From contig JAAOIH010000004.1 of NCBI GenBank assembly GCA_015163875.1, forward strand, positions 11,984 to 75,983: DNA of 64,000 nucleotides, in the 5' to 3' direction. Below the pieces are notes generated by a model. That model searched no databases. It saw only the letters and a list, made by a program, of their open reading frames with translations, and had not been told where the DNA came from. Position numbers and translations under genes: made by a program. This stretch comes from Bdellovibrionales bacterium (GTDB lineage: Bacteria; Bdellovibrionota; Bdellovibrionia; Bdellovibrionales; UBA1609). Shown here one piece after another: positions 975-52,375 of the stretch; the first letter of the stretch is position 1; every line of letters starts with the position of its first letter.

Positions 975-2393
975 TTATTTATTTAATAGTAATTTAAGAA
1001 ATTTTCTTCTCCAGCTTAATGCTTTTAAAGTGTCTTTTGCTTTTCCATTAAATATCCATGTTACTAGCAACTCTTCTTTTTTTCCAGCTTTAACAAATCC
1101 AGAAAATGCAACAACTGCATTTAGCAAGCCAGTCTTTCCCCTAATAGATTGATTAGGCTTAACAAAATTATAACTTTTTAAAGTTCCGTCTACACCTGCT
1201 AAAGAAAAAGCACTTAACAGCTCTGGTGAGTACTTGTGATTTTTTATATATTTTAATAGTTTTAATATAGTACTAGCTTTTAATTTATTTTTTCTAGATA
1301 AGCCAGAAGGATTAAAAAAATAAATACTTTGATCTCCCCTGCCTATTTTTTGAAAAGTTTTTTTAATTCTTAAGTTATAATTACTAAACTGAGAACTTAG
1401 CATATCTGTAATATAATTATTAGAAAACTTTAACATATCAGAAATTAACAAAGGCAGAGGTTTGCTTTTTACTTCTGCTATTTTTTTATATTTATATAAA
1501 TCTGTATTATTAAAATTTTTAATTTTTATTTTTCCCTTAATACTAATGCCTTGTTTTTTTAAAAAGATGCGTAGATAACTACCTAGCCACAGCTCTGGAT
1601 TGCTTATATTTTTATACGCAATAAAGTCTTTTGATTTTGTTCCAATAACTCCACTAAGAATTAATATATTTTTTTTATTTTTAATAAGTCTTTTAATGTG
1701 AATATTGCTTCTTTTGCCAGCTACACTTTGTATATTGTTTCTTATTTTTAAAAATTTTGTTTTATATGGGTCAATAATAATATTAGCCTTTCTTCCTGCA
1801 GAAGAAGCCCTTACTTTAAGACTAAGGCTGTTCCAATTAAAAGAGCTTGGTGAAATTAAAGCTTCGTAAGCTCTGTCTCCCCTAGGCCTTTTATTATCTT
1901 TTTTAATATTGTATTTAAAAAATTTTTTAAAAATTACAAGATCGCCTTTTATTGTTATAATATTTGAATGAGAAAATATTCTTACTAAATTCCACATAGA
2001 TTCCGAAACAAAAGCAGGATCTCCACCTCCGTTAAAATAAAGACTTCCGTTTAATTGGTTTTTTATTATATTACTAGATTTTTTTTTCAATAAAGAGCTA
2101 GTAAATTTTTTTTTAATTCCCCATTCATCTAAAGCTGCTAAGGCTATAACTATTTTATTTAAAGAGGCTGGTGTAAAATATTTTTCAGCATTATGATTAA
2201 TACTAAATGACTCAATAGGGTTTTTAGACTCAATTGCAAATGACAAATTAGATGGATTAATTTTATTTTTAGTAATAAATTTTTGTATTTTTTTATCTAA
2301 GCTTTTTTTTGTCCAATAAAATCCTGGATTTGGTAAATTAATAAACTGAGCATTTGTTATAACAGAAAAAAGTAAAAAGCTAAAAAATAAAAT
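975..2393 (-). CDS. dacB: D-alanyl-D-alanine carboxypeptidase/endopeptidase, PBP4 family (S13); start codon uncertain
   Basis: SxxK motif (PASLNK), SxN-like SNNYITD and KTG (RGKTGLL). Overall collinear with my recollection of E. coli DacB. Signal-peptide core ILFFSFLLFSVITNA|Q. The six-frame ORF extends to 2483 only by translating a tRNA gene. Confidence 0.8.
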   Translation of the reverse strand: MLFFSFLLFSVITNAQFINLPNPGFYWTKKSLDKKIQKFITKNKINPSNLSFAIESKNPIESFSINHNAEKYFTPASLNKIVIALAALDEWGIKKKFTSSLLKKKSSNIIKNQLNGSLYFNGGGDPAFVSESMWNLVRIFSHSNIITIKGDLVIFKKFFKYNIKKDNKRPRGDRAYEALISPSSFNWNSLSLKVRASSAGRKANIIIDPYKTKFLKIRNNIQSVAGKRSNIHIKRLIKNKKNILILSGVIGTKSKDFIAYKNISNPELWLGSYLRIFLKKQGISIKGKIKIKNFNNTDLYKYKKIAEVKSKPLPLLISDMLKFSNNYITDMLSSQFSNYNLRIKKTFQKIGRGDQSIYFFNPSGLSRKNKLKASTILKLLKYIKNHKYSPELLSAFSLAGVDGTLKSYNFVKPNQSIRGKTGLLNAVVAFSGFVKAGKKEELLVTWIFNGKAKDTLKALSWRRKFLKLLLNK

Positions 2394-2479
2394 GGTACGG
2401 ATAGGGAGACTTGAACTCCCATGGTGTTGCCACCGGTGGATTTTGAATCCACTACGTCTACCAATTCCGCCATATCCGC
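2393..2479 (-). tRNA. tRNA-Leu (anticodon CAA), class II with long variable arm, CCA encoded
   Basis: Minus-strand read: GCGGATA acceptor pairing with TATCCGT plus A-CCA. Anticodon stem GTGGA/TCCAC with loop TTCAAAA. T-arm GGGAGTTCAAGTCTCCC. Long variable arm. Confidence 0.9.
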
Positions 2480-2486
2480 ACATAGG

Positions 2487-8022: not shown

Positions 8023-8898
8023 ATGAACACTACTCAAAATCCACTTTTATTATTAGCGTCTTTAAGTTGGCATAATATAAATTTAACACCTAAATGTTTT
8101 TTAAAACTTTTAAAAGATTATAAAAAATATCAATTTCCTATGTCAGATACATGGAAGTATATTCCTTTAAAATTACAAGAAAAATTAAAAGCAAAGCCTA
8201 ATTGGTGGCACAACTCTGAAGAACAAATTTTATGGTCTGTAAAATATGGAATCAAATTTACATATCCTGGGCATCACAACTACCCCTCTCAATTAATAAT
8301 GAATTTAAAACATAGCCCGCTTTTATCTTATATAGGAAGACCTATAAGCCAAGACACTCACCCACTACTTGCTGTTGTTGGAAGTCGCAGGCCTAGTCAA
8401 GATAGTTTACATTGGATGGACTCAGTCTTAGGTCCTGTTATAAAAAATAACAACATACATTGCATTAGCGGAGGGGCACAAGGCATAGACCAGCATAGTC
8501 ATAAAATTAGTATCAGAAACAACGCCCCCACTGTTGCCTTTATACCAACTGGTTTTAAAAATATTTATCCGCAATCATTTAAAAGTTATATAAAAGCTAT
8601 TCAAAAAAGTGGAGGCAGTGTGGTTAGTTTATTTGCCCCAGATGTTCCTTTATTTAAATACAATTTTCATAAAAGAAATTTATTAATAGCTAGTCTTGCA
8701 TCACATATCTTAATGATTGTTGGGCAAAAAAAAAGTGGAAGTTTATTAACTGCAAATCTTGGATTACAATTAAATAAAGAAATAGGAACTATACCTCAGT
8801 CTCCGTGGAGTATGTTTTCTGGAAATATTGAATTAATAAAACAAGGTTCTCAAATTTTAACAACTCAAGAAGATTTATGCACTTGGCTTAAGGTTTAA
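8023..8898 (+). CDS. dprA: DNA-processing protein DprA (Smf)
   Basis: Rossmann-like core AVVGSRRPS ... ISGGAQGIDQHSH typical of DprA. Confidence 0.85.
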   Translation: MNTTQNPLLLLASLSWHNINLTPKCFLKLLKDYKKYQFPMSDTWKYIPLKLQEKLKAKPNWWHNSEEQILWSVKYGIKFTYPGHHNYPSQLIMNLKHSPLLSYIGRPISQDTHPLLAVVGSRRPSQDSLHWMDSVLGPVIKNNNIHCISGGAQGIDQHSHKISIRNNAPTVAFIPTGFKNIYPQSFKSYIKAIQKSGGSVVSLFAPDVPLFKYNFHKRNLLIASLASHILMIVGQKKSGSLLTANLGLQLNKEIGTIPQSPWSMFSGNIELIKQGSQILTTQEDLCTWLKV

Positions 8899-8928
8899 AA
8901 TTGAATCAGTTTTAATGCTTAATAAGCT

Positions 8929-10041
8929 TTAAAAAGATAGCATTCTTTCAGAAAGTGGCATAACTATTTTTCTTTTACAATAAAGCCATGCACAAATAAT
9001 TATAATCCATAAATTTGGTATTAAATAAATAAAATGTGCTGTTGCCAATCCTTTTTGCGACCAGCCCAGACACAAAGAATACAGCAGCCAAAACACAGAC
9101 ACAATAAAAAATGCTACAATAGATTGTCCATTTTTTTTAAAAAAATTCATAGGTAAAAGCATCCATGCAAGTAATGAAAAAGACAAACATGCTAAAATTA
9201 AATTAATAGATTTATATTTATATATAATTTTTTTTTGTATATTTTTGTAAATCAAATTATCTTTAGCATTTAAATCTAGTAGAGTGTAATATTTTAAATG
9301 AGGGTTAACAGATGTAGGCGCTAATGACTGTAAAAGTATTTGTGCTTTGTCAAAAGTATACAAAAAAGGATTTTTAGAATTTAAATTATATGCAGTTCCT
9401 TTGCGTATATCTAATATCAGGTCTCTTTTAAGGTTTTCTTTTTTTAAAAAAGTTCGTGATTTTTTAGCAGATATAGATATATTATTTTTTTTATTAGGAA
9501 GAAATACAAAAATTTTTTTAAAAAAATCATTAGAAGATTTATCTTTTGCATAAAATAAACTATTTTTAATTCCAAATTGAAACACTTCTGATTTTATATT
9601 TTGATATATTGTCATATTAAATTGATTGCGCATTAACTTTAATTTATAAGATGCCATTGGTTTTAAAAAAAAATTAATTTGAATACTAAACAAAAGCACA
9701 ATGCCTGCTAAAACAATAATTGGATAAAAAAATATTTTTAAGTTTAACATATAACTTAAAAAAAATTCATTATTTACAAAAAGATCATTGTAAACAAAAA
9801 GTACTGCAATCAACAAGCTTATAGAAAGCACCGTTGGCAAAAATATAAAAAAATCTACTCCCAAATAAATAATAAAGTCTAAAAAAGACACTCCGTTAGA
9901 AATATATTCAAAAAGTTTTAAAATTTCAAAAATATAAAAAACACAACAAAAGATTGAAATAATTAATAAAAATTTTTTTATTAATTTATTAAAAATATAC
10001 AAAAAAAATTCTGCTTTGGAGCTTTGCAAAAAATTTAACAT
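8929..10041 (-). CDS. LptF/LptG-family LPS export permease (YjgP/YjgQ)
   Basis: Family architecture: 3 N-terminal TM helices, a periplasmic beta-jellyroll region, then C-terminal TM helices. The N-terminal pattern resembles YjgP/YjgQ. Confidence 0.65.
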   Translation of the reverse strand: MLNFLQSSKAEFFLYIFNKLIKKFLLIISIFCCVFYIFEILKLFEYISNGVSFLDFIIYLGVDFFIFLPTVLSISLLIAVLFVYNDLFVNNEFFLSYMLNLKIFFYPIIVLAGIVLLFSIQINFFLKPMASYKLKLMRNQFNMTIYQNIKSEVFQFGIKNSLFYAKDKSSNDFFKKIFVFLPNKKNNISISAKKSRTFLKKENLKRDLILDIRKGTAYNLNSKNPFLYTFDKAQILLQSLAPTSVNPHLKYYTLLDLNAKDNLIYKNIQKKIIYKYKSINLILACLSFSLLAWMLLPMNFFKKNGQSIVAFFIVSVFWLLYSLCLGWSQKGLATAHFIYLIPNLWIIIICAWLYCKRKIVMPLSERMLSF

Positions 10042-10045
10042 AAAT

Positions 10046-12526
10046 CTATAGTTTAGAAATATTTTTTAAAATACTCTTTTTTAAGCTAATAATATTTGAG
10101 TGATCCCCAATAAAATATATAAATGTTCTGTGCTCTTTAATATATTGAACAAGTAAGTTCTGTTTTTTTTCTCCTTGCAAGAGTCCATACCATGTAATAG
10201 AAGATTGCTCTTTTAAGGAAGCTCTTGCGTTTAAAAATTTATCTATAGCCTTTATTTTATTTTGTTTTTTTAAAAAATTCTTTTCTGTAATAATTCCGCC
10301 AGAAGGTGAAAGTTGTTTATATACTAATATGCTAAGTTTATTTATCTGCACCTTTTCTGACACTGGAAGATAGTTTTTTAAACTTATTAATTTATAATTT
10401 TTATTATCATCTACAGAGTCTATATGAAAATTTGCTAAATTAGAAAAATAAGATTTTATTTGTATTTTTCTGTCAACAGATGACAGTTCTCTTTTTTTCT
10501 GCTTTTTTTTAATAACTATTTTAGCTTTAATATTTTTTTGTACTGTATTAACAAAAATATTTGTATTATTTGTTTTTAATTTATAACTAACAACAGCAAC
10601 TACCAATATAAATACCGATGCTCCAAATTGTATATCTCTTTTTTTTACGCTTTTCTTTTTTTTCTGCAATAAAAGATCGTCTATATTTTGAGTATTTTTA
10701 GATATATCTATTGATTCTATATTTTGAATTTTATTAAAAAAATATTTAGCTTCTTCTAAATTTTCTGTAATCTCGCAATACAAAGCTTTGGTTAAATAAA
10801 TAAAATGATTAAAGTTTAAAATATTTTCTGGAATATTTTTAATATACACCTTCATTCTTTTTTTAATAGCTTGCTTTTTTTTATGTGTAGCTTCTTCTTT
10901 ATAAGCAACTATTAAAGCCCATAATAAAAACACTTGTTTTTTTGCATATATAACAGATGGATTTTGAATTTTTTCTAACAAGCCAGTTAAATTTTGATTT
11001 TGTAATTGGACTATAATTTCATTTTCTAATAACTGCTCTTTAAACTGCTCTTCAAATTTTTCTTGCTCTAGTAAAGATTGATAAGACACTCTCATTTGGT
11101 CTTTAGATAATGTGGCGTAAGCTTGTGAAATAGACTTAAATATTTCTTCATAAAGATCTCGCTCTTCTGAAGACGCAAAAAAAGAACAATTATCTGGATG
11201 AAACTTTTTAGAAAGACTTCTATAAGCTTGTTTAATATTTGGCTCTGTAGAATCTAGGCTAACATCTAATACTTCAAAATAATTTTTTTTCTTATTATCA
11301 TTATGAATATTTAACAATTCTGTTTTGCTTAATTGTTTAGATGATGAAAGTGCAACTACATCAAGCAATAAAAATAAATACAAAGTTTTTAATGTTTTAA
11401 GCTCAGATTCTGTGCTAAAATCTTTAAGCTGAACACAAGAAGACGACAATCTTTTTTTTATTTTATTAAAGCTGTCTAACATATCTGGGTCGCTAATTGT
11501 TTGTGGGAAATTTTCTTTTCTTAAAATTAAATAGTAAGAATTAAATTTTTTTAAAAATCCATGCAACCAGCTATCTGTTAAATTATTAGAAAATCGTATT
11601 AAAATACGCTCCCATTCCTCTATTGAAAAATGACCTAATTTACTTTCATTAGATTCTTCTTTTTCTGTCCATTCGCAAGTTATTGGGCTATTGTTAAATA
11701 ATTTAAAAAATCTTAAAGCTATTTGTAAATTAATAATTTTAAAAATTTCTATTTCTGTAACTAATGACTTTTCTAATAAAAATACTCCAATATTCTTTTT
11801 AGCTTCTCTTGCTTCAATACAGTAGTTCTCTATTTGTCCATACTTTAACTGTGTTAATTTTGCCAACAAAACTCCAAATGATGTAGGTTTGTCATTCATT
11901 TTTATAAATATAATATTACCTTTGCTGTAATGAATTTCTACTTCTTGAGCATCTGTTTTTATTGTTACAACTCCCGTTGATTTAGTTTTAAAAAAACAAG
12001 TTAAATATTCTGGCAAATTATTAGCCGAAAATTTTGTAGGCTTTTTTAAATTATTTATAAACTGATCATCTAAATAATTGCTGCCAATTAAGGCTCTTTC
12101 AATATAACTTATATCAGAAGCTTTAATGCTTTCTTTAGTTTCTGATATTTTATTTTTTTTATATTCTTCAAATACCTTAATTAAATTTGCAACTTCAAAA
12201 GGTTTAGAAAATACTTTTAAAATTAAAGGATTTGTAATTAAACTATTTTGAAATTCTACATCAGTAAAAATACCAGATATATAAATTATAGGAATTTTAA
12301 AATATGAATGTTTTAACAAAGAGGTTGCCCAATCTGACCCATTACCGTTTGGCATAAATAAGTCTATAATTAATAAATCTGGAGAAAAAGTTTTTAATTT
12401 ATCTTCTGCATCAAAAGAGCTAGTGCAAACTACTGTCTCGTAATTGTAATCTTGTAAGCTTTTAGACAAAGAATCGGCAAATGATTTATCATCATCTAAA
12501 ATTAAAACTTTACACTTTGTAGACAT
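10046..12526 (-). CDS. multidomain protein: response-regulator receiver, PATAN/DUF4388-like region, J-domain (DnaJ), helical repeats, TM helix and C-terminal domain
   Basis: Receiver residues are intact (ILDDD, PDLLIIDLFMP, IIYISG, SKPF). The DUF4388-like stretch is TGVVTIKTDAQEVEIHYSKGNIIFIK...IGVFLLEKSLV. The J-domain is NYFEVLDV...KKFHPDN with HPD at 11200..11192. The TM helix is IQFGASVFILVVAVVSYKL. Confidence 0.75.
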   Translation of the reverse strand: MSTKCKVLILDDDKSFADSLSKSLQDYNYETVVCTSSFDAEDKLKTFSPDLLIIDLFMPNGNGSDWATSLLKHSYFKIPIIYISGIFTDVEFQNSLITNPLILKVFSKPFEVANLIKVFEEYKKNKISETKESIKASDISYIERALIGSNYLDDQFINNLKKPTKFSANNLPEYLTCFFKTKSTGVVTIKTDAQEVEIHYSKGNIIFIKMNDKPTSFGVLLAKLTQLKYGQIENYCIEAREAKKNIGVFLLEKSLVTEIEIFKIINLQIALRFFKLFNNSPITCEWTEKEESNESKLGHFSIEEWERILIRFSNNLTDSWLHGFLKKFNSYYLILRKENFPQTISDPDMLDSFNKIKKRLSSSCVQLKDFSTESELKTLKTLYLFLLLDVVALSSSKQLSKTELLNIHNDNKKKNYFEVLDVSLDSTEPNIKQAYRSLSKKFHPDNCSFFASSEERDLYEEIFKSISQAYATLSKDQMRVSYQSLLEQEKFEEQFKEQLLENEIIVQLQNQNLTGLLEKIQNPSVIYAKKQVFLLWALIVAYKEEATHKKKQAIKKRMKVYIKNIPENILNFNHFIYLTKALYCEITENLEEAKYFFNKIQNIESIDISKNTQNIDDLLLQKKKKSVKKRDIQFGASVFILVVAVVSYKLKTNNTNIFVNTVQKNIKAKIVIKKKQKKRELSSVDRKIQIKSYFSNLANFHIDSVDDNKNYKLISLKNYLPVSEKVQINKLSILVYKQLSPSGGIITEKNFLKKQNKIKAIDKFLNARASLKEQSSITWYGLLQGEKKQNLLVQYIKEHRTFIYFIGDHSNIISLKKSILKNISKL

Positions 12527-12599
12527 AATAATAATATCGGAGAAAGGCTTGAAAAACTGAAAATTTTATACTAATCTTAGGTCTAAAAATGGAGTAATA

Positions 12600-12923
12600 A
12601 TGCCTACTAAAAACACAACAGATAAAGATTTTCAAACAGATATTTTAGAAAGCAAGGGTCTTGTTCTTGTAGACTTTTGGGCGCAGTGGTGTGGGCCATG
12701 CCGAGCCTTAGGTCCTAAATTAGAAGAAATTTCAGAAGAACATAAAGAATCTGTTAATATTTATAAAATTAATATTGATGAAAATACAAAAACACCATCG
12801 ACATATAATGTAAAGGGTATCCCAACTATGATTTTGTTTAAAGATGGACAAGTTATGGACCAGCTAGTTGGAAATCAAGAAAAAGAAAGTATTTTAAATA
12901 AAATAAAAGAACATAAAAGTTAA
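12600..12923 (+). CDS. trxA: thioredoxin
   Basis: WAQWCGPCR active site, 107 aa, and the conserved GIPT cis-Pro loop. Confidence 0.95.
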   Translation: MPTKNTTDKDFQTDILESKGLVLVDFWAQWCGPCRALGPKLEEISEEHKESVNIYKINIDENTKTPSTYNVKGIPTMILFKDGQVMDQLVGNQEKESILNKIKEHKS

Positions 12924-12933
12924 ATTTAAAAAA

Positions 12934-14370
12934 TTATAGATCTAGATTTTCTGAATCTTCACTTTTTGAATCTTTGTTTTCATAATTTTTTTCTTCAGTA
13001 GCTTCATTCTCAAAATCTTCTTCTAAATCTGTAGCTTCTGAGCCTGTAGCTTCTGGGTCTGTAGCTTCTGAGCCTGTAGCTTCTGAGTCTGTAGCTTCTG
13101 AAATATCATTTTCTAAATTGTACTCTTCTGAAGTAGTATTTTTTGTATTATTTTTTTCTAATATTTTATCTTCCTTGCTGTCACTTTCTAAATTTTTATC
13201 ACCTAAATTGTCATCATCTAAGTCACCATCTAAGTCACCATCTAAGTCATCATCTAAATCATCGCCATCTAATATGTCTTCTTCAAAATTTTCTTCATCA
13301 CCAAATTCGTTGTCTATCAAGTTTGTTTTATTATTAGATGACCCTAAGTCACTTGCTTGATCAAAGCTTCCAACTCTGTCTCCTAGTTGAACATCTGAAA
13401 TAATTTTACTAATTACTGCTGTGGAGGTGTTTTTTTTAATATCTATAATATTAATATAGGCAACAGCCTTATCTCCCCATTGTTTTATTCCACCTCGAGA
13501 TTTTAAATTTTGATATACTGGCAAAGTATCGCCTATTTTTAAAAATTCATCTGAGCCTACATTTAAATAAACTAAAGAATGTAAACCAAACAGTTCTGGT
13601 GAAGGTATGGCCTTTCCTCCGATAATTAAGCCAACCCTAGAAAGCTCTTTGCTGTTGTTAATATTTTTTGAAATAAAAAATTTATTAACTTTTCCATCAA
13701 TAACAGAGTCTCCTGCGGTAACTGAAAAAAATGATTTCGTAATTTTAGCTTTATACTCTTTGTAAAAAGATTCTTCGGTGTTATCTACAATTTCAATAAT
13801 TTGTAACTCAGCTTTTACACGAAGAAGGCCTTCAAAAAGTAATTTGTTTTTAAAATAGGCTGGCTTAGTTTCTATAACTCTAAGCAACTGTCCGAGTCTT
13901 ATATTGCTATCATCAAAAACTTTAATAAATATATTCTGACCTTTAGAGTATAAAAGTTTTCTTCCATCAGCTAATGTGCTGCCTATAACTTTTGGCTCAT
14001 TTTCTATAATCATGCTGCTTAAATGAATATAGTGGGCTTGGCTACTTAGCTCAGGCTCTACAAATTCAATAGACAAATTATTAAACTTGTCTTCTTTTAA
14101 TTTATGGTAAATATTTGACCAGTTAGGAAAGCTTGATGGAAATTTTTTAAGTATTGGCTTTGGTGTTATTTTTGATTTTGGCAAAATCACTTTTTTTTTA
14201 TATTTAACTATATTGCCATCTTCATTTGCTTTTTTAAACATAACAGTAATCATTTTTCTTTTATTCTGATTTACTGGTATAAATTTTGAAGAATTACTAG
14301 AATCAGCCTTAATATTCATGCTTAAAGTAAATACTATTGCTAAAATAGTAAGTATAAAATTCCTAATCAT
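12934..14370 (-). CDS. exported protein with two beta-rich GD-x-V modules and an acidic repeat tail
   Basis: Signal peptide MIRNFILTILAIVFTLSMNIKA. The C-terminal ~130 aa are Asp/Glu-rich with (DLDG/DLDD)n and (SEATx)n repeats. No family recognised. Confidence 0.6.
   Translation of the reverse strand: MIRNFILTILAIVFTLSMNIKADSSNSSKFIPVNQNKRKMITVMFKKANEDGNIVKYKKKVILPKSKITPKPILKKFPSSFPNWSNIYHKLKEDKFNNLSIEFVEPELSSQAHYIHLSSMIIENEPKVIGSTLADGRKLLYSKGQNIFIKVFDDSNIRLGQLLRVIETKPAYFKNKLLFEGLLRVKAELQIIEIVDNTEESFYKEYKAKITKSFFSVTAGDSVIDGKVNKFFISKNINNSKELSRVGLIIGGKAIPSPELFGLHSLVYLNVGSDEFLKIGDTLPVYQNLKSRGGIKQWGDKAVAYINIIDIKKNTSTAVISKIISDVQLGDRVGSFDQASDLGSSNNKTNLIDNEFGDEENFEEDILDGDDLDDDLDGDLDGDLDDDNLGDKNLESDSKEDKILEKNNTKNTTSEEYNLENDISEATDSEATGSEATDPEATGSEATDLEEDFENEATEEKNYENKDSKSEDSENLDL
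13031..13102. repeat. 15-bp tandem repeat, ~4.8 copies (GTAGCTTCTGAGCCT-like), in frame within the acidic tail
   Basis: Copies at 13031, 13046, 13061 and 13076, plus a partial copy at 13091. They encode SEATD/SEATG/PEATG units on the minus strand. Confidence 0.9.
13215..13262. repeat. 12-bp tandem repeat, 4 copies (CATCTAAGTCAC-like)
   Basis: Copies at 13215, 13227, 13239 and 13251. They encode the GDLD/DDLD units of the acidic tail. Confidence 0.9.
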
Positions 14371-14648: not shown

Positions 14649-15641
14649 ATGCCTCTATTGTTGCCTTTAATTCTCTTAACATATTATTTATCCAGTAATA
14701 CTTATTTTTTTTTGTCCGAGAATGCTTTGGCATTAAGTGACAGCTTGCATAATTTTTGCCTAAGCTTTTCTAAGCCAAGTCCCTATGAGGGGCTTTATCA
14801 AAGCCTAAGTTGTGGAAAAAAGCTTTCTTCAGATCTATATTCTTTATTTGCTAAATCTGGACTAATACACTTAATTATTATTTCTGGATTACATATTTCA
14901 TTAATATATAGATTCTTAAATTACATACAAAAAAAAATATTTTTTCTACCAAAAATTATAACAGTTAGCGTCAATTTATTATTCTTACTCTTATACACAT
15001 TTATGCTCAATATTTCAGCACCAGCTTTAAGGGCATATTTATTTCAAATAGTAAGATTAGTAAATGCAAATTATAAATTACACTGGCCTCCTAGTTATTT
15101 AATTTTAATTTCTGTTTTACTTAGCATTTTATTTAAACCAACATTATGGGCATCAATGTCTTTGTTATTAAGCTGGACTGCCATAATAATTATTTATTTT
15201 TTACAACAAGTATTAACACATCCATTAATACCTAAGGTTTATAAACAACCTTTGTTAAGAATAACTATACAGGGAATTTTATTATATTTATTTTTGTTTC
15301 CTATATTAAGTCAATTTAACAACATTCATCCTTTTAGTATTTTTGTGCAATTATTATTTACACCTTTGTTATTATTTTTGTTAATTCCTTTGTCTATTTT
15401 ACAATATTTTTTATTCTCTAATCTTATCTTTACAGATTACTTATGGAAAACTTTTTTTTTATTATTAAACCCAATGCAAGGCATGTTAGCTAGTGGGCCT
15501 ATTGCAGAAAAGCGACCCTTACTTTATTTTTGGATATACGCTGTTAGTTTGCAATTTTGTTTATTTATTTTTGAAAAGTATAATAGGCATTTTAAACTTT
15601 CTATAAAACAAAACATAAACTTTAAAAATCATGATTTATAA
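14649..15641 (+). CDS. comEC: ComEC/Rec2 competence channel, membrane (competence) domain portion
   Basis: Polytopic membrane protein with the ComEC signature SGLIHLIIISGLHISL. It ends 11 nt inside the next ORF. Confidence 0.75.
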   Translation: MPLLLPLILLTYYLSSNTYFFLSENALALSDSLHNFCLSFSKPSPYEGLYQSLSCGKKLSSDLYSLFAKSGLIHLIIISGLHISLIYRFLNYIQKKIFFLPKIITVSVNLLFLLLYTFMLNISAPALRAYLFQIVRLVNANYKLHWPPSYLILISVLLSILFKPTLWASMSLLLSWTAIIIIYFLQQVLTHPLIPKVYKQPLLRITIQGILLYLFLFPILSQFNNIHPFSIFVQLLFTPLLLFLLIPLSILQYFLFSNLIFTDYLWKTFFLLLNPMQGMLASGPIAEKRPLLYFWIYAVSLQFCLFIFEKYNRHFKLSIKQNINFKNHDL

Positions 15642-16536
15642 TTTTTTTACTTATTTTATTTTTTTATTTTTATTTTTTTCTCCTCATTACTTATCTAGTA
15701 ATAAAATACAGCCACCTGTATTTATTATATGGAATATTGGGCAGGGCTCTTGGAGCAGCCTTGTTACAAACAATACATGTTTTCATTTTGATATGGGAGG
15801 TAAAAGGCTACATAAAAAAAATAAAATTATACAGAGTTGTAAAAAAAAACAAAATATTTTACTGCTAACACATGCTGATACAGATCATGTTAATCTTACT
15901 TATCAATTTAAAAAAAAATGGATAAAATTTTGCTTATACAAAAATCCAAGAGAGCAGCCTAAAAAATATAATAAAAGATACTTAAAAAATTTACAATTAT
16001 GCTCAAAAAAAACACTTATGTTGTTAAAAAAACAAGATATTGTAGAAATAAAATTTTCTATTCCTAAAAAAAATACTTTTTATAAAAAAAAATATTATAC
16101 TTTTAAATCTGGAATTAAATCTGGATTTAAATCTGGAACTAAATCCAGATTTAAATCTGGATTTAAATCTGGATTTAAGCATGAACATAAATCTAATCCA
16201 AAATCTAGGTCTAATTTTTTAAGCAGAATTTTTTTAGTTAAAAAATTAATTCTTATAGGTGGTGATAGCACAAAAAAAGCAGAGCTGTTGTGGAAAAACA
16301 ACATACCAAATCCTGAAAAAATTAAATATTTTCTTTTAAACCATCATGGAAGCAAAAACAGCAATCATATAAAACTTTTAAAAAAACTTAAAAATTTAAA
16401 AGTAGCTATTGCAAGTGCAAAAAAATCTAGATACAAGCATCCTCATAAAAAAGTTGTTTTGCGTTTAAAAAAACAAAAAGTAGCTTTGTTGCAAACAGAA
16501 GTATGGGGTTCGATTTATATTTATTTAAAAAAATAG
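15631..16536 (+). CDS. comEC: ComEC C-terminal metallo-beta-lactamase-fold domain, encoded as a separate ORF
   Basis: WNIGQGSWS (compare DVGQGD), LLLTHADTDH (metal motif variant), LNHHGSKNS, and KHPHKKVV...LQTEVWGSI, as in ComEC MBL domains. It has its own N-terminal TM helix. Confidence 0.7.
   Translation: MIYNFFTYFIFLFLFFSPHYLSSNKIQPPVFIIWNIGQGSWSSLVTNNTCFHFDMGGKRLHKKNKIIQSCKKKQNILLLTHADTDHVNLTYQFKKKWIKFCLYKNPREQPKKYNKRYLKNLQLCSKKTLMLLKKQDIVEIKFSIPKKNTFYKKKYYTFKSGIKSGFKSGTKSRFKSGFKSGFKHEHKSNPKSRSNFLSRIFLVKKLILIGGDSTKKAELLWKNNIPNPEKIKYFLLNHHGSKNSNHIKLLKKLKNLKVAIASAKKSRYKHPHKKVVLRLKKQKVALLQTEVWGSIYIYLKK
16105..16176. repeat. 12-bp tandem repeat, 6 copies (AAATCTGGATTT-like), with degenerate copies to ~16212
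   Basis: Encodes (KSGF/KSGI/KSGT/KSRF)6 inside the MBL-domain ORF. Confidence 0.9.
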
Positions 16537-32116: not shown

Positions 32117-34909
32117 TTAAAACCCACCTCTTGCTGGTCTCTTGTCACCACGATTATCTTTATCTCTTACATTTTGGTCGCAAGATCTAAAATTACTAGC
32201 ATAAGTTCCACAATCAGGAGTATTTGTGTTTGAGCCATCACCAATTCCTACTGTAAATCCTCCGTTGAATCCTCCGTTGAATCCTCCGTTGAATCCTCCG
32301 TTGAATCCTACTCCTACGCCGCCGCCGCCGCCGCCGCCGAAATTATTGTCATAAGGTGCGCTGGCAATTTGTTGCATTTGTAATTGCAATTGATAAATTT
32401 GTTGTTGAAATCCAGAAATTTTCTGATTTCTTTGTTGTTTTTGATTGTTAATACTTTGTTGTTGTTGAATCCATGCGCTAACATTTTGTTGGTACTGTTG
32501 AGCTAATTGCAATTGATATTGTTGTCCTAAATTTATTCCACCGCCGCCACCGAAGTTGCCGCCTCCTCCTGGGAATCCGCCTAAGCCACCACCAAATCTG
32601 CCGCCACCTGGGAATCCGCCTAAGCCGCCGCCTGGGAATCCGACTAAGCCACCACCAAATCTGCCGCCACCTGGGAATCCGCCTAAGCCACCGCCGAAGT
32701 TGCCGCCTCCACCTGGGAAACCACCTGGGAATCCGCCTAAGCCACCGCCAAATCCTCCGCCGCCTGGGAATCCACCTAAGCCACCACCAAATCCGCCTCC
32801 ACCTGGGAAACCGCCTAAACCACCGCCGAAGTTGCCGCCTCCACCTGGGAAACCACCTGGGAATCCGCCTAAGCCACCGCCAAATCCGCCGCCTCCTGGG
32901 AAACCACCTGGGAAACCGCCTCCACCTGGGAAACCGCCTAAGCCACCGCCGAAGTTGCCGCCTCCACCTGGGAAACCGCCTAAGCCACCGCCGAAGTTGC
33001 CGCCTCCACCTGGGAAACCACCAAATCCGCCGCCTCCTGGGAAACCACCTGGGAAACCGCCATTACCGCCTCTTATCATTTGTACATAAGGGTTAATGCC
33101 CATTTGAAATGGAGCCCCTCCCATTGGTCCGAATACTTGTGGAGGGTAGCCAAAAGCTCCTCCAACAACAGGTTGTCCGTATGCTCCAGATCCTACTCCA
33201 CCGTTACTCCAAAAATTTCCATCTGGTTGAATTTGAAATCCTCCAATAGATTGTGCGCAACTATAAGAACCAGAATAACTAGCAGATCCTGTTAAAGAAC
33301 CATATCCACCTTGATTATAATATCCGCGGTAATAATATCCAGCGCCTCCTGCACCTGAATTACTAGAAGAGCTGTTAGCAAAAGCAGAGTTTACTGTATT
33401 AAGACCAAATAATGCACCTTGTACACCTAATAAACTAGATTGTTGAGACAATAACTCTGCGTCAGTTTCGTAACCTAAAGACTGATTAGCGTCTATTGCA
33501 TATTTTGCAGATTTGTCTCCAAGTCCAGAAAGTAATTTAGATCCGCCCCAAGCCCCCAAAAGACTTGCGCCTAATTGCAACCAAGGAGAAGTGCTCTTTT
33601 TTTGTACTTGAGCCTGCCCTGCTGGTCCGTAATAAATAAAACCAGGTGCTGAGCCTCCAGATCCTGCGTGAGTTACACAATCTTCACAACCACCCTCAAC
33701 TGCGTCTGCTAATTCTTCTAAATCATCAGCTTCTTTATAATTTTTTACGTTTTTTTCTAGGTCTAATAATTTTTCTCTGTTAGAATCTAAATCTGCAATT
33801 AATTTTGAACAAGCTTCAACATGTTTTTCTTTAGAGGGGGATTTGCTTTTTTTACCAGTTTTCCATATTTTAGTATAAGAACAAATATCTTTTGGAATAC
33901 CATTAGCAAAATTTGCATCTTTATCAACACACCCGGTTGACTCAGGCTCTGTTGTAGCGCTGATTGACGGAGTGTCTACAGCAATAGTGTCAACATAATA
34001 ATTACAATTATCGTCAGAGTTTTCGTCACAATCACTAGTAGAAGATGAGCTAATTAAAGAAGCAGATGTAACTTCGTTTCTGTCTGTGCTCGGGCTACCT
34101 GTATATGCATCGTCGTAGGCATCAATTGCAGAACTTGAGTGACAAGAATTTTTTCCAACATCACATAAAGCTTTTGGAGTTGCCTTATTTATTTTAACTG
34201 CTTTTTCTCTATCCGCTTTTATACCTGCTTTTTTTTGAGTTAGTATTTTTCTTGCATCTTCTAAGGTTTTTTGCTTGTTGAATAGTTTAATTTGGCTTTT
34301 GATTTTAGATATTAATATTGTATTTTCAGCTAATTCGTCTTTTCTTATTATAGAATTCCATAGGCCTTCCAATTTTTCTTTTTTTTTAATTAATGCTTCT
34401 AGCTCACTTTGCAGTGACGATAAATGTTCTGATACTGTTTGATTTGCATCTGCTGCTTGATTTGCATCTGCTATTTTGTTTTCATCTATGATTTTTTGAT
34501 TGTCTTCTAATGCTTTTTTATTTTCATCTAATGCTTCTCTGTAACTATCTATACTGTTATTTATATCTGCAATCTGACCACCTCCACTTGAACAATATCC
34601 AAAGTTTAAAGAAAGCGGATTATCTTTAAATTTATTAATGTCATCAATAGCACCTTCTTTTAAATATTTACCAAGTGCTTTAATGGTTTTTTTAATTTTT
34701 TTCTTAGCAGCTTTTTGTTTTTTTGCTTGATCTTCAACAAAAGCCTTTTTAGTATGTTTGAAAATTTTTTTAGGTGTACATGCTTGTCTTCCTGGCTGTA
34801 TACCTGCCCCGTAATACGCTGATGCATATTCTGGCATTCCTAAAATGCTCATGCTAAATATTAAAATACTTATATTTATAAATTTCATAAAACAGAATAT
34901 TTGCTTCAT
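32117..34909 (-). CDS. 930-aa secreted low-complexity protein with coiled-coil, G/Y/S-rich, GFPGG-repeat, Gln-rich and FNGG-repeat regions
   Basis: Uninterrupted 2.8-kb ORF. RBS AGGAAAG lies upstream of the ATG at 34909, and the signal peptide ends in ...EYASA. Composition is described under findings. Confidence 0.8.
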   Translation of the reverse strand: MKQIFCFMKFINISILIFSMSILGMPEYASAYYGAGIQPGRQACTPKKIFKHTKKAFVEDQAKKQKAAKKKIKKTIKALGKYLKEGAIDDINKFKDNPLSLNFGYCSSGGGQIADINNSIDSYREALDENKKALEDNQKIIDENKIADANQAADANQTVSEHLSSLQSELEALIKKKEKLEGLWNSIIRKDELAENTILISKIKSQIKLFNKQKTLEDARKILTQKKAGIKADREKAVKINKATPKALCDVGKNSCHSSSAIDAYDDAYTGSPSTDRNEVTSASLISSSSTSDCDENSDDNCNYYVDTIAVDTPSISATTEPESTGCVDKDANFANGIPKDICSYTKIWKTGKKSKSPSKEKHVEACSKLIADLDSNREKLLDLEKNVKNYKEADDLEELADAVEGGCEDCVTHAGSGGSAPGFIYYGPAGQAQVQKKSTSPWLQLGASLLGAWGGSKLLSGLGDKSAKYAIDANQSLGYETDAELLSQQSSLLGVQGALFGLNTVNSAFANSSSSNSGAGGAGYYYRGYYNQGGYGSLTGSASYSGSYSCAQSIGGFQIQPDGNFWSNGGVGSGAYGQPVVGGAFGYPPQVFGPMGGAPFQMGINPYVQMIRGGNGGFPGGFPGGGGFGGFPGGGGNFGGGLGGFPGGGGNFGGGLGGFPGGGGFPGGFPGGGGFGGGLGGFPGGFPGGGGNFGGGLGGFPGGGGFGGGLGGFPGGGGFGGGLGGFPGGFPGGGGNFGGGLGGFPGGGRFGGGLVGFPGGGLGGFPGGGRFGGGLGGFPGGGGNFGGGGGINLGQQYQLQLAQQYQQNVSAWIQQQQSINNQKQQRNQKISGFQQQIYQLQLQMQQIASAPYDNNFGGGGGGGVGVGFNGGFNGGFNGGFNGGFTVGIGDGSNTNTPDCGTYASNFRSCDQNVRDKDNRGDKRPARGGF
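32256..32338. repeat. 12-bp x4 tandem repeat (AATCCTCCGTTG) followed by (GCC)7
   Basis: Four perfect copies at 32256..32303 encode (FNGG)4. GCC x7 at 32318..32338 encodes a Gly run. Confidence 0.9.
32538..33072. repeat. degenerate in-frame tandem repeats (39-54 bp units), GC-rich
   Basis: The plus-strand motif CCTGGGAA(A/T)CC recurs about 17 times. On the minus strand the region encodes GGFPGGGG(N)FGGGL units. Confidence 0.9.
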
Positions 34910-35167: not shown

Positions 35168-36313
35168 ATGCCTAAACAAAATTACTCTACTTATGGCCCG
35201 CTTAACAAAAGTTACAAAATTCTTTATATAGATACATGTTCTAAAAACACAGCAAATGTAATTGAGCTTTTGTCTGATCATTTTAAAATTCATACTGCAG
35301 CGTCTGTAAAAGAGGCTTTGTTACTAATTGATGACATAAGTTTTTCTTTAATTATAAGTCAGGTAATTTTAGAAAAACAAACTGGTATAGATTTTTTTAA
35401 ACAAGTAAAAGAAACTAATCTTTCTGACAGTATTCGTATTTTAATAACAGATAAAAATACAAAAAAAAATACTCTTATTGAGGCTATAAACAATGGAGAT
35501 ATATATCATTATCTTAAAGAGGGCTACTCACCATCTGAATTACAAAATCTTATTTACAAAGCCTTAAAACAATACGAAGCAAAGCTAACTATTGACCAAA
35601 AAGATTTAGAGTTAAAAAAAGCATATTCAGATTTAAAAGAATTAGACAAATCAAAAACACAATTTATGATGCTTATTAATCATGAACTAAAAACACCTTT
35701 AACTAATATTATTAATTTTATATCATTACTAAAAGTATCAAAACTAAATGATGAACAAGAAAAATACTTAAACTATATAGAAGGTAGCACTGGCACATTA
35801 AAAAAATTAATTGATGAAAGCTTAAGTTTTATATCGGCCGAAACTGGGCAGTTAAAATTAAATAAAAATATAGTTAGCATACCAGCTTTGTTGCAAAGCC
35901 CTTTAGAAAAATTACAAAAAAAAATAAAAAATAAAAAACAAAGTTTAGATTTAAAAATTTGTGATGACAAAATTAAAATTGATATAAAAATTATACAACA
36001 AATTTTAAATCATCTTTTACATAACGCAATAAAGTTTGGACCAGAAAATAGTGAAATTAGCTTTCATGTAACCAAGTCAGACAATTTAGAACTTGGATCA
36101 TTAAAATTTTCAATATCAAACACAGGAAAGGAAGTGCCAAAAGATATAGTAGAAAAAATATTTAAACCATTTGTTTTAAACGAACAAAACATGAACCACA
36201 GCCAAGGATTTGGCCTAGGCCTAAGCCTTTGCCAAGCACTATTAAAAGTTCACAAATCCCAATTAAAGTTTACTAATTCAAACAACATTACAAGCGTATA
36301 CTTTTATTTATAA
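35168..36313 (+). CDS. histidine kinase with an N-terminal pseudo-receiver domain
   Basis: Receiver-fold N-terminus with Gln at the phospho-acceptor position (SLIISQVIL; CAG at 35360..35362). H-box FMMLINHELKTPL. HATPase N-box HNAIKF and G-boxes GFGLGLS. Confidence 0.8.
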   Translation: MPKQNYSTYGPLNKSYKILYIDTCSKNTANVIELLSDHFKIHTAASVKEALLLIDDISFSLIISQVILEKQTGIDFFKQVKETNLSDSIRILITDKNTKKNTLIEAINNGDIYHYLKEGYSPSELQNLIYKALKQYEAKLTIDQKDLELKKAYSDLKELDKSKTQFMMLINHELKTPLTNIINFISLLKVSKLNDEQEKYLNYIEGSTGTLKKLIDESLSFISAETGQLKLNKNIVSIPALLQSPLEKLQKKIKNKKQSLDLKICDDKIKIDIKIIQQILNHLLHNAIKFGPENSEISFHVTKSDNLELGSLKFSISNTGKEVPKDIVEKIFKPFVLNEQNMNHSQGFGLGLSLCQALLKVHKSQLKFTNSNNITSVYFYL

Positions 36314-36400
36314 ATCGCTGTTTTTTAAAAAACAATTCTCGGAACACCCAAGTCGGAATATTTTTTTAACTTCTACACTACAACCTACTTTACATGGATT

Positions 36401-37669: not shown

Positions 37670-37673
37670 TATT

Positions 37674-52309: not shown

Positions 52310-52375
52310 AAGATATCTTAACTCTAAATTGAAGCGCTTGACTACTTAATAAAAAATTTTCTAACATAAGTATAT

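What the first reader, a model, noticed from the sequence alone, without database searches (positions are those of the whole stretch)
10046..12526. Receiver domain fused to a PATAN/DUF4388-like module and a membrane-anchored J-domain
Read from the translation, the 826-aa protein has these parts in order.
- A receiver with all canonical residues: DDD, acceptor Asp in PDLLIIDLFMP, Ser in IIYISG, Lys in SKPF.
- A stretch matching the DUF4388/PATAN pattern: TGVVTIKT..EVEIHYSKGNIIFIK...SFGVLLAKL...IGVFLLEKSLVTEIEI.
- A J-domain with intact HPD (KKFHPDN; HPD codons 11200..11192).
- Helical TPR-like repeats.
- One TM helix and a C-terminal region of about 170 aa beyond the membrane.

J-domains recruit and activate Hsp70/DnaK. 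A phosphorylation-gated, membrane-tethered J-domain would be a two-component output that I do not know to have been characterised. DjlA is membrane-bound but has no receiver.
Basis: partly seen in the sequence, partly recalled or inferred. Interest (0 to 1): 0.55.

Follow-up and report, generated by a model that had tools for sequence, protein, structure and literature searches.

The report
Receiver-controlled membrane J-domain co-chaperone
This gene encodes a two-component receiver fused to a PATAN module and an Hsp70-recruiting J-domain; it belongs to a large, unstudied protein family of predatory Bdellovibrionales bacteria, and this lineage alone has added a membrane-spanning helix and an outer domain.

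Summary
ORF 10046..12526 (-) encodes 826 aa. Pfam matches above the curated cut-offs are Response_reg (7-118), DUF4388/PATAN (170-312, marginal) and DnaJ (415-482). The HPD codons lie at 11200..11192. One hydrophobic helix spans 632-650, followed by a 176-aa tail.

It is not an assembly artefact. Four orthologues (52-67% identity, 818-828 aa) from other assemblies keep the whole reading frame.

It is not unique either. An exhaustive HMMER search found more than 100 cluster representatives of about 645 aa with the same collinear REC-PATAN-J-TPR layout. A genome scan placed 77 loci almost entirely in Bdellovibrionales MAGs.
- 46 of these loci sit in the same trx / lptFG / dprA neighbourhood and are orthologues.
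- Another paralogue group ends an operon that encodes a PAS-Hpt-HATPase kinase and a CheY-like protein.
- All of them lack the transmembrane helix and tail, which are therefore clade-specific additions.
- Nine orthologues have lost HPD.

Best reading: a phosphorylation-controlled, membrane-located class C J-protein that brings DnaK to clients chosen by the PATAN and TPR-like modules. The client is unknown. I found no published characterisation. The protein is a new variant of known kinds and is moderately interesting.

The parts
10046..12526 (-). Whole gene: 826-aa REC-PATAN-J-TPR-like-TM-C-terminal domain protein
   Evidence: ORF listing. An identical protein is in NCBI as 'MAG: DnaJ domain-containing protein [Bdellovibrionales bacterium]', and there are four full-length orthologues.
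12173..12508 (-). Receiver (REC) domain, residues 7-118. Acidic pocket D11-D13, S84, K108.
   Evidence: Pfam Response_reg, 49.1 bits against a cut-off of 30.2. D12, D55, K108 and P109 are invariant in a 91-sequence alignment. D55, S84 and K108 are conserved in 46/46 syntenic orthologues.
12362..12364 (-). Codon of the predicted phospho-acceptor Asp55
   Evidence: Invariant column in alignments A1, A2 and A3.
11591..12019 (-). PATAN / DUF4388 domain, residues 170-312
   Evidence: Pfam DUF4388, 25.7 bits (full length) and 27.7 bits (sub-sequence) against a cut-off of 25. 54 of 69 family members hit DUF4388, with a best E-value of 1e-14.
11723..11881 (-). Alpha-helical insertion of PATAN, residues 216-268: two MshEN-like 24-residue repeats separated by 5 residues
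   Evidence: Motif test against the published MshEN patterns. Repeat II (245-268) fits the relaxed motif at 11/11 positions, repeat I (216-239) at only 6/11. G218, G247, L250 and Q268 are nearly invariant in the family.
11081..11284 (-). J-domain, residues 415-482
   Evidence: Pfam DnaJ, 53.5 bits against a cut-off of 27.8. The family profile matches solved J-domains of Sec63, DNAJC3 and DnaJ. This is the best-conserved region among the five orthologues, at 72% mean identity.
11192..11200 (-). HPD tripeptide codons (H443-P444-D445)
   Evidence: Coordinates computed. Invariant in the five orthologues. Kept in 37/46 group A and 9/9 group B loci.
10652..11071 (-). Helical TPR-like region, residues 486-625
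   Evidence: No Pfam TPR hit in this protein. The region aligns collinearly with the part of relatives that carries TPR_2 hits in 32/69 members. W536, P566 and A593 are nearly invariant. The structure model is all-helical here.
10577..10633 (-). Predicted transmembrane helix, residues 632-650, preceded by a polybasic stretch (QKKKKSVKKRD)
   Evidence: Hydropathy of 1.9, present in all five orthologues. The flank charges favour N-terminus inside, C-terminus outside. It takes the place of the short hydrophobic-polybasic tail of the 645-aa relatives.
10049..10576 (-). Clade-specific C-terminal region, residues 651-826. A basic linker is followed by a folded alpha/beta domain (about 679-826).
   Evidence: AlphaFold model m7535cf6fd770: pLDDT 73.6, pTM 0.69. 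No Pfam, NCBIfam or PDB-sequence match. No significant Foldseek match. Conserved at 45% mean identity in five orthologues. No hit among the best 150 of the exhaustive search extends beyond profile position 636, and the 46 syntenic orthologues are 590-700 aa long.
8929..10041 (-). Downstream lptF/lptG-family permease gene, probably co-transcribed
   Evidence: Pfam LptF_LptG, 97.6 bits. Its start codon is 4 nt after the target's stop codon, with no terminator-like site between them. The same arrangement is seen in L001-L004.

Best explanation
The gene encodes a response regulator whose output is an Hsp70 co-chaperone module.

**Proposed mechanism.**
1. A histidine kinase, not identified in this window, phosphorylates Asp55 of the N-terminal receiver.
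2. Phosphorylation changes how the receiver packs against the downstream modules. This controls either the availability of the J-domain or its binding to partners.
3. The PATAN domain and the TPR-like helical region select the partner or client.
4. The J-domain, through its HPD loop, docks DnaK-ATP and triggers ATP hydrolysis, so DnaK clamps the client at that site.
5. The protein works at the cytoplasmic face of the inner membrane.

In most Bdellovibrionales relatives, membrane contact would come from a short hydrophobic-polybasic C-terminal tail. In this low-GC clade the tail has been replaced by a true transmembrane helix plus a roughly 150-residue folded domain on the far side. That domain could anchor the protein to, or report on, an envelope structure.

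**What is shown:** the domains, the conserved catalytic residues, the size of the family, the synteny, and the link of paralogues to a kinase operon.

**What is inferred:** phosphorylation, the DnaK partnership, the membrane topology, and the identity of the client. My best guess for the client is a pilus or other envelope machine, by analogy with PATAN-PilB/PilC and DnaK1/DnaJ3-T4P.
For: **Domains and residues.**
- All three domains pass the Pfam cut-offs.
- D12, D55, K108 and P109 are invariant in a 91-sequence alignment, and S84 and HPD are at least 90% conserved.
- D55, S84 and K108 are kept in 46/46 syntenic orthologues.
- The protein has no glycine/phenylalanine-rich region and no zinc finger (sequence), so it is a class C (type III) J-protein.

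**Family.**
- More than 100 representatives at 50% identity are collinear over REC-PATAN-J-TPR.
- Pfam on 69 members gives REC 69, DnaJ 66, DUF4388 54 and TPR_2 32.
- 77 genomic loci were found, nearly all in Bdellovibrionales.
- The neighbourhood PBP2-RodA-trx-[gene]-lptFG-dprA is conserved.

**Link to phosphorelay.**
- A paralogue group is the last gene of an operon encoding a PAS-Hpt-HATPase_c kinase and a CheY-like receiver. This ties the family to His-Asp phosphotransfer.
- It also mirrors cyanobacterial Tax operons, which pair a CheY with a PATAN response regulator (bioRxiv 10.1101/2021.06.11.447907).

**Membrane location.** The transmembrane helix is conserved, with a positive-inside charge bias.

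**Precedents.**
- The PATAN domain binds PilB1 and PilC and localises to the membrane.
- DnaK1/DnaJ3 acts on type IV pilus motors (PMC9239167).
Against: - No experiment exists for any member of the family.
- Nine of 46 syntenic orthologues and three group C paralogues carry FDPD, YDPA or IGPE in place of HPD. DnaK ATPase stimulation is therefore dispensable in some lineages.
- The DUF4388 score of the window protein is only marginally above threshold.
- This protein has no Pfam TPR hit.
- No kinase is adjacent to the group A genes, and no dnaK lies in the window.
- The full-length structure model has low confidence (pLDDT 54.5), so there is no information on how the domains pack.
- The test for an amphipathic membrane-targeting tail in relatives was inconclusive (mean z 0.36).
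- Conserved synteny with envelope genes may reflect shared ancestry rather than shared function.
Confidence: 0.6

Rival explanations
1. The protein is a phosphorylation-independent scaffold. The receiver is used only as a protein-binding module, as in the orphan PatA-type regulators, and the protein acts as a constitutive membrane adaptor.
For: - Group A genes have no adjacent kinase.
- In other Bdellovibrionales the neighbouring convergent gene encodes a divergent receiver-like protein that scores below the Pfam cut-off.
Against: - Every residue needed for phosphotransfer (D12, D55, S84, K108) is conserved in essentially all members of groups A and B. That is not expected of a pseudo-receiver.
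- Paralogues sit directly downstream of a kinase and a CheY.
Confidence: 0.15
2. The hydrophobic segment 632-650 does not span the membrane. The protein would be cytoplasmic or peripheral, and the C-terminal domain an extra cytoplasmic partner-binding module.
For: - There is only one hydrophobic segment, of moderate hydropathy (1.7-2.3).
- The tail is very basic, with 35 K+R against 12 D+E, including a KKKQKKR run 25-30 residues after the helix. This weakens the positive-inside argument.
- Relatives have only a short tail at this position.
Against: - A stretch of 17-19 uncharged hydrophobic residues is conserved in character, though not in sequence, across five orthologues. This is typical of a transmembrane helix.
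- The immediate flanks carry +4 to +7 on the N side and -1 to +3 on the C side.
- The structure model makes it a single long helix separate from both neighbouring domains.
Confidence: 0.15
3. The PATAN insertion is a cyclic-di-GMP receptor of the MshEN type. The protein would then integrate c-di-GMP with phosphorylation to control DnaK recruitment.
For: - The insertion consists of two 24-residue repeats separated by exactly 5 residues, as in MshEN (PMC5013675).
- Repeat II (NIGVFLLEKSLVTEIEIFKIINLQ, 245-268) fits the relaxed MshEN motif at 11/11 positions.
- G218, G247 and Q268 are nearly invariant in the family.
Against: - Repeat I fits only 6/11 positions in the window protein.
- Across the family, repeat I lacks both the first Arg and the final Gln. 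Repeat II has Arg at position 1 in only 19 of 64 members.
- Tandem-motif scores across the family are no better than in shuffled sequences (14.9 against 14.2).
- Both halves are needed to bind one c-di-GMP molecule.
Confidence: 0.1
4. The long ORF is an artefact: two or more genes joined by an assembly or frameshift error.
For: Relatives are about 645 aa and lack the last roughly 190 residues. The tail could therefore, in principle, be a fused neighbouring gene.
Against: - Five orthologues from at least four separate assemblies (NCBI and Logan) keep one uninterrupted frame of 818-828 aa, with the tail conserved at 45% identity.
- In other Bdellovibrionales the gene downstream of the relatives lies on the opposite strand and shows no similarity to the tail or to anything in the window.
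Confidence: 0.02

Closest known systems
PatA-type response regulators (PATAN-REC: PatA of Anabaena; PixG, PixE, PilG, LsiR of Synechocystis)
   Same: They combine a PATAN/DUF4388 domain carrying a helical insertion with a receiver. They localise to the membrane. They are encoded next to a CheY-like protein in kinase-containing operons, as the group B paralogues are.
   Different: The domain order is reversed here: REC first, then PATAN. This protein also carries a J-domain, a TPR-like region, a transmembrane helix and an extra domain. PatA-type proteins have no chaperone module.
DjlA of Escherichia coli (membrane-anchored class C J-protein)
   Same: It is a J-protein held at the inner membrane by a single helix. 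It has no G/F or zinc-finger regions. It is functionally connected to a phosphorelay (Rcs; PMC11709261, listed).
   Different: DjlA has its transmembrane helix at the N-terminus and its J-domain at the C-terminus. It has no receiver, PATAN or TPR. From my own knowledge of the literature, DjlA acts upstream of the phosphorelay; this protein would be an output of one.
TPR-J proteins (human DNAJC3/p58IPK; the J-protein DnaJ3 of the DnaK1-DnaJ3-GrpE system of Nostoc punctiforme)
   Same: DNAJC3 has a J-domain joined to TPR-type helical repeats that select clients. The family profile matches the DNAJC3 J-domain. The Nostoc DnaK1/DnaJ3 system acts on type IV pilus motors. I did not check the domain make-up of Nostoc DnaJ3.
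   Different: They have no receiver and no PATAN. In DNAJC3 the TPR repeats precede the J-domain, whereas here they follow it.
RssB and CpdR (receiver-domain adaptors for ClpXP)
   Same: The logic is the same: a receiver domain gates delivery of specific clients to a general proteostasis machine. Weak NCBIfam similarity through the receiver only.
   Different: The machine addressed here would be Hsp70/DnaK rather than a protease. The output domains are unrelated.
Myxococcus xanthus MXAN_6013 (annotated DnaJ/PilZ)
   Same: It is another bacterial J-protein fused to a signal-input domain, listed in a screen for suppressors of type IV pilus motility (PMC6211767).
   Different: Its input is a PilZ (c-di-GMP) domain, not a receiver. 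It has no PATAN. It is itself uncharacterised.

Membership tests
Response regulator receiver (PF00072) | HMM match above the curated cut-off | tested here: met
   49.1 bits against 30.2, residues 7-118.
Response regulator receiver (PF00072) | Acidic pocket, phospho-acceptor Asp, conserved Ser/Thr and Lys | tested here: met
   D11-D13, D55, S84 and K108 are invariant in five orthologues. D12, D55 and K108 are invariant in a 91-sequence alignment. D55, S84 and K108 are kept in 46/46 syntenic orthologues.
Response regulator receiver (PF00072) | Is phosphorylated on the Asp by a cognate kinase | not testable with these tools
   No kinase is adjacent. Paralogues in other genomes follow a PAS-Hpt-HATPase kinase and a CheY.
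J-domain protein (PF00226) | HMM match above the curated cut-off | tested here: met
   53.5 bits against 27.8, residues 415-482.
J-domain protein (PF00226) | HPD tripeptide between helices II and III | tested here: met
   H443-P444-D445, codons 11200..11192. Invariant in five orthologues. Lost in 9/46 more distant orthologues.
J-domain protein (PF00226) | Stimulates the Hsp70/DnaK ATPase | not testable with these tools
   Requires a biochemical assay.
Class A/B DnaJ (DnaJ, CbpA) | G/F-rich region, zinc-finger CxxCxGxG repeats and/or C-terminal substrate-binding domains after an N-terminal J-domain | tested here: not met
   NCBIfam DnaJ and CbpA models match only their first roughly 60-85 positions, far below their cut-offs. 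The J-domain is internal. There are no Pfam DnaJ_C or DnaJ_CXXCXGXG hits. The protein is therefore class C.
PATAN / DUF4388 (PF14332) | HMM match above the curated cut-off | tested here: met
   25.7 bits (full length) and 27.7 bits (sub-sequence) against 25. This is marginal. It is supported by 54/69 relatives, with a best E-value of 1e-14.
PATAN / DUF4388 (PF14332) | Alpha-helical insertion of two repeated helical hairpins | tested here: met
   Repeats 216-239 and 245-268. The Pfam match spans 143 residues against 107 profile positions.
PatA-type response regulator | PATAN at the N-terminus followed by REC, with no other domains | tested here: not met
   The order here is REC then PATAN, followed by a J-domain, a TPR-like region, a TM helix and a C-terminal domain.
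TPR repeat proteins | TPR HMM match in the protein itself | tested here: not met
   No TPR family at E <= 10 for residues 486-630. The homologous region of relatives hits TPR_2 in 32/69. It is called 'TPR-like' by homology only.
DjlA family | N-terminal transmembrane helix with a C-terminal J-domain | tested here: not met
   The N-terminus is a soluble receiver. The only hydrophobic helix is at 632-650, C-terminal to the J-domain.
MshEN c-di-GMP-binding domain | Two 24-residue RLGxx(L/V/I)(L/V/I)xxG(L/V/I)(L/V/I)xxxxLxxxLxxQ motifs separated by 5 residues | tested here: not met
   The spacing and repeat II fit (11/11 on the relaxed motif). Repeat I fits 6/11, and neither repeat has Arg at position 1 in the window protein.
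Single-pass inner-membrane protein, N-terminus inside | One hydrophobic helix of about 19 residues with a positive-inside flank bias | tested here: met
   Hydropathy 1.7-2.3 in five orthologues. N flank +4 to +7, C flank -1 to +3. The topology has not been tested experimentally.

The most novel reading that the evidence does not exclude
Bdellovibrionales may use His-Asp phosphorelay, including a chemosensory-like PAS-Hpt-kinase/CheY module, to switch on local Hsp70 activity at the inner membrane. The output of signalling would then be chaperone-driven remodelling of an envelope or pilus machine rather than transcription. In this low-GC clade the same protein also reaches across the membrane with a domain of no recognisable fold. 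One polypeptide would thus couple a periplasmic state, a phosphorylation signal and DnaK recruitment.
Probability: 0.3. Interest if true: 0.7.

Novelty: new variant of a known kind. Interest (0 to 1): 0.55.

Why it matters
Response regulators are known to end in DNA-binding, enzymatic or protein-binding outputs. J-proteins are known to give Hsp70 its specificity. A receiver fused to a J-domain would join these two fields: signal-dependent, site-specific deployment of the general chaperone.

The family is conserved across a whole order of predatory bacteria. It comes in at least two paralogous groups, and one of them is wired to a kinase operon. It therefore probably serves a core process such as pilus function, gliding, envelope growth or prey entry.

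It is also directly testable, because cultured Bdellovibrionales may carry the gene (none was found or looked for here). The transmembrane variant in this window adds a fold with no detectable relatives.

Tried and rejected
1. **Tail as a fused downstream gene.** Rejected. In other Bdellovibrionales the next gene is on the opposite strand, encodes a receiver-like protein, and has no similarity to the tail or to anything in the window.
2. **The 241-aa receiver-like gene at 52376..53101, next to a second lptF/G paralogue, as a relocated copy of that partner gene.** Rejected. tblastn found no similarity to any copy of the partner gene, and the lptF/G next to the target is the orthologous one.
3. 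**Amphipathic-helix test on the tails of the 645-aa relatives.** Inconclusive: mean z 0.36 against shuffles. Only the conserved 'DLxxVVGxLFKKK' pattern is reported.
4. **MshEN-type c-di-GMP site.** The tandem motif is not met.
5. **Word-indexed homologue searches.** The searches with the 69-sequence alignment and with P0083 returned mostly receiver-only hits. They gave no taxonomy for the more distant 690-860 aa relatives.
6. **Genome scans.** Scans with the 69- and 30-sequence alignments failed for lack of conserved stretches. A 6-sequence alignment worked.
8. **Promoter scan.** It found no more sites than in shuffled sequence in this AT-rich DNA.
9. **Literature.** Seven of eight full-text searches looked for a characterised REC-J protein or for work on PATAN/DUF4388, and found no such protein. 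The eighth looked for a c-di-GMP capture study in Bdellovibrio and did not retrieve it.
Full report
**1. Observation.**

The ORF at 10046..12526 on the minus strand is real. It starts with ATG and encodes 826 residues. Pfam gives three matches above the curated cut-offs:
- DnaJ, residues 415-482: 53.5 bits against 27.8.
- Response_reg, residues 7-118: 49.1 bits against 30.2.
- DUF4388 (the Pfam name for PATAN), residues 170-312: 25.7 bits against 25. This rises to 27.7 bits when the region is scanned alone.

NCBIfam models of DnaJ and CbpA match only through their first 60-85 positions. There is no G/F or zinc-finger region, so this is a class C J-protein.

A single hydrophobic segment lies at 632-650, with a Kyte-Doolittle mean of 1.9. 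It is preceded by QKKKKSVKKRD. The remaining 176 residues have no Pfam, NCBIfam or PDB-sequence match.

The 'TPR-like' label for residues 486-630 has no HMM support in this protein. It rests on homology, as described in section 3.

**2. It is a real gene.**

The identical protein is in NCBI as 'MAG: DnaJ domain-containing protein [Bdellovibrionales bacterium]'. Four orthologues of 818-828 aa (52-67% identity) come from other assemblies. Their alignment keeps D11-D13, D55, S84, K108 and HPD invariant.

Mean pairwise identity by region:

| Region | Identity |
|---|---|
| J-domain | 72% |
| Receiver | 66% |
| Helical region | 61% |
| PATAN | 55% |
| Transmembrane helix | 45% |
| C-terminal tail | 45% |

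The tail is therefore under selection, and the long frame is not a sequencing error. In all five, an lptF/lptG-family gene follows after 4 nt. Pfam scores the window copy at 97.6 bits.

**3. It belongs to a large family.**

An exhaustive HMMER search with the five-sequence profile against 1.84 billion representatives gave 44 proteins at E <= 1e-30. The best 150 were dominated by proteins of 620-680 aa that align in one stretch to profile positions of about 4 to 600-635. This covers receiver, PATAN, J-domain and helical region, but not the transmembrane helix or tail.

Pfam on 69 of them (including the five) gives Response_reg 69, DnaJ 66, DUF4388 54 and TPR_2 32. In alignments of 69 and 91 sequences, D12, D55, K108 and P109 are invariant. 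S84, HPD, G185, G203, G218, G247, Q268, W536, P566 and A593 are at least 90% conserved.

More distant proteins of 690-860 aa keep the same REC-DUF4388-DnaJ-TPR order with longer linkers. I could not establish their taxonomy.

**4. Where the family lives, and orthology.**

A scan of one genome per GTDB species found 77 loci. Nearly all carry Bdellovibrionales, Pseudobdellovibrionaceae or Bdellovibrionaceae titles, and several genomes hold two copies.

I used the window's neighbouring proteins as probes. About 46 loci show the conserved order PBP2, RodA, thioredoxin (opposite strand), the REC-J gene, then lptF/G, dprA, a LysM-like gene, comEC and alanine dehydrogenase. These are orthologues of the window gene. 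In the window, the trx-[gene]-lptFG-dprA block is simply inverted.

In those genomes a 250-290 aa gene lies tail-to-tail between the REC-J gene and lptF/G. It encodes a divergent receiver-like protein (Response_reg 23-26 bits, below the cut-off). It is absent from the window and from the four orthologous loci.

All outgroups lack the transmembrane helix and tail, so these are derived features of the low-GC clade.

**5. A kinase link in the paralogues.**

Nine to eleven loci form a second group. There the REC-PATAN-J gene is the last gene of an operon that reads, in order:
- a roughly 300-aa protein;
- a 159-aa protein;
- a 646-aa PAS-Hpt-HATPase_c kinase;
- a 136-aa CheY-like receiver.

In some loci a HAMP-SpoIIE phosphatase lies upstream. 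A third small group keeps the 159-aa gene next to it.

This is the strongest genomic evidence that the receivers of this family are real phosphorelay endpoints. It also parallels the cyanobacterial Tax operons, which encode one CheY and one PATAN-containing regulator.

**6. Conservation of the two switches.**

The table counts conservation across the locus groups.

| Group | Receiver residues | HPD |
|---|---|---|
| A (46 syntenic orthologues) | D55, S84, K108 in 46/46; D12 in 45/46 | 37/46; nine have FDPD, FEPS, YDPA and similar |
| B (9 loci) | D12, D13, D55, S84, K108 in 9/9 | 9/9 |
| C | 3 of 4 have changed D12 | 3 of 4 have IGPE |

The receiver is the more constant feature. In some lineages the J-domain has become J-like. 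The window protein and its four close orthologues keep a canonical HPD and the basic helix II (KQAYRSLSKKF).

**7. Membrane end.**

The 645-aa relatives end in a conserved short pattern, roughly DLxxVVGxLFKKK. That pattern is a candidate membrane-targeting tail. My hydrophobic-moment test did not separate it from shuffled tails. The convergent receiver-like partner ends in a similar F-x-x-x-LF-K-K pattern.

In the window clade this position is occupied by the true hydrophobic helix. Its hydropathy is 1.7-2.3 in all five orthologues. The charge bias favours N-terminus in, C-terminus out.

**8. C-terminal domain.**

Modelled alone, residues 652-826 give pLDDT 73.6 and pTM 0.69. The first roughly 27 residues are disordered and basic. 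They are followed by a helix, three strands, two helices, four strands and a final helix.

The full-length model is of low confidence (pLDDT 54.5). I did not use it to infer domain packing.

**9. PATAN insertion.**

Residues 216-268 form two 24-residue repeats separated by five residues. This is the geometry of the c-di-GMP-binding MshEN domain. Repeat II fits the published relaxed motif at 11 of 11 positions, but repeat I fits only 6 of 11.

Across the family, repeat I lacks the Arg and Gln that contact the ligand. The family's tandem scores are also no better than shuffled sequence. The relationship of this insertion to the N-termini of pilus and secretion ATPases is already described in the literature. 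I do not predict c-di-GMP binding.

**10. Mechanism.**

The best-supported reading is a phosphorylation-controlled, membrane-located class C J-protein.
- Shown: the domains, the intact catalytic residues, the family and its synteny, and the kinase-operon paralogues.
- Inferred: that Asp55 phosphorylation gates the output, that the J-domain activates DnaK, that PATAN and the TPR-like region select the client, and that the tail is periplasmic.

The client is unknown. Three precedents point to pilus or other envelope machines:
- PATAN binds PilB1 and PilC and localises to the membrane.
- A DnaK1/DnaJ3/GrpE system acts on active type IV pilus motors in Nostoc.
- A DnaK homologue is needed for social motility in Myxococcus (reference cited within).

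The window holds a Tad-type secretin and a CpaF-like ATPase at 36401..38783, behind a REC-HisKA-HATPase kinase at 35168..36313. That is 24 kb away, and I do not claim a link. The envelope-gene neighbourhood (mreCD, PBP2, rodA, lptF/G) is conserved but may be inherited order rather than functional coupling.

**11. Comparison and novelty.**

The protein combines features of several known kinds and is a member of none:
- PatA-type regulators (domain order reversed, extra domains here);
- DjlA (opposite topology, no receiver);
- TPR-J proteins such as DNAJC3 (no receiver).

Its logic resembles the receiver-gated protease adaptors RssB and CpdR. Seven of my eight full-text searches looked for a characterised receiver-J-domain protein, or for work on the PATAN/DUF4388 domain, and found no such protein.

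I rate it a new variant of known kinds. The finding is real and testable, and of moderate interest. That interest is tempered because receiver fusions are very diverse, the family is already annotated by domain in databases, and no function can yet be assigned.

Noticed in passing
window 32117..34909 (-): A 930-aa ORF with an N-terminal hydrophobic leader, a charged helical part and a long glycine-rich repeat (GGFPGGGGNFGGGLGGFPGGGG...). It explains the local GC of 0.45 in a 26% GC window. There is no rRNA there and no Pfam hit.
   Followed up: partly
window 35168..38783 (+): Three consecutive genes: a REC-HisKA-HATPase_c hybrid kinase (35168..36313), a secretin (36401..37669, Pfam Secretin 120 bits) and a T2SSE/CpaF-like ATPase (37674..38783). 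This is a Tad/Flp-type pilus or secretion cluster with its own kinase.
   Followed up: partly
L006 9942..10763 (-), L008 9931..10797 (-), L027 4875..5630 (-), and most group A loci: In other Bdellovibrionales a 250-290 aa gene lies tail-to-tail with the REC-PATAN-J gene. It encodes a divergent receiver-like protein (Response_reg 23-26 bits, below the cut-off). It ends in an F..LFKK pattern like the J-protein's own tail. It is missing from the window and from loci L001-L004.
   Followed up: partly
L043, L044, L045, L047-L050, L054, L079 (group A); L063, L067, L077 (group C): One sub-clade of syntenic orthologues has replaced HPD by FDPD, FEPS, YDPA and similar. A small paralogue group has IGPE plus a changed receiver D12. 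In these lineages the J-domain has probably become a J-like domain.
   Followed up: partly
L051, L052, L055, L058-L061, L071, L074, L075: A second paralogue group of REC-PATAN-J-TPR genes closes an operon. The operon reads: a roughly 300-aa protein, a 159-aa protein, a PAS-Hpt-HATPase_c kinase and a CheY-like receiver. In L052 and L074 a HAMP-SpoIIE phosphatase lies upstream.
   Followed up: partly
window 51233..53101: A second lptF/lptG-like paralogue (51233..52309, -; by my reading of the translation and one weak tblastn hit, not scanned against Pfam) is transcribed divergently from a 241-aa receiver-like gene (52376..53101, +; Response_reg 28.8 bits, just below the cut-off). It is not the missing partner gene.
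   Followed up: partly
window 8023..12923: The block trx - REC-J gene - lptF/G - dprA is inverted relative to the order seen in about 46 other Bdellovibrionales loci. The flanking PBP2-rodA and LysM-like-comEC-ald genes keep their orientation.
   Followed up: no
window 975..2483 (-) and tRNA at 2396..2479 (-): The listed 502-aa ORF (PBP4/Peptidase_S13-like, by comparison with L004) begins inside a tRNA gene. Its first roughly 30 codons are the tRNA read as protein, so the real start must lie further downstream.
   Followed up: no
window 12934..14370 (-): A 478-aa protein with a signal-like N-terminus and an acidic C-terminal repeat (SEATDSEATGSEATDPEATGSEATD). Its counterparts in related loci carry a weak LysM hit. 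The window copy has no Pfam hit.
   Followed up: no
window 14649..16536 (+): comEC is split into two ORFs that overlap by 11 nt (330 aa and 301 aa). The same split is called in the orthologous loci L001-L004, so it is probably genuine in this clade.
   Followed up: no
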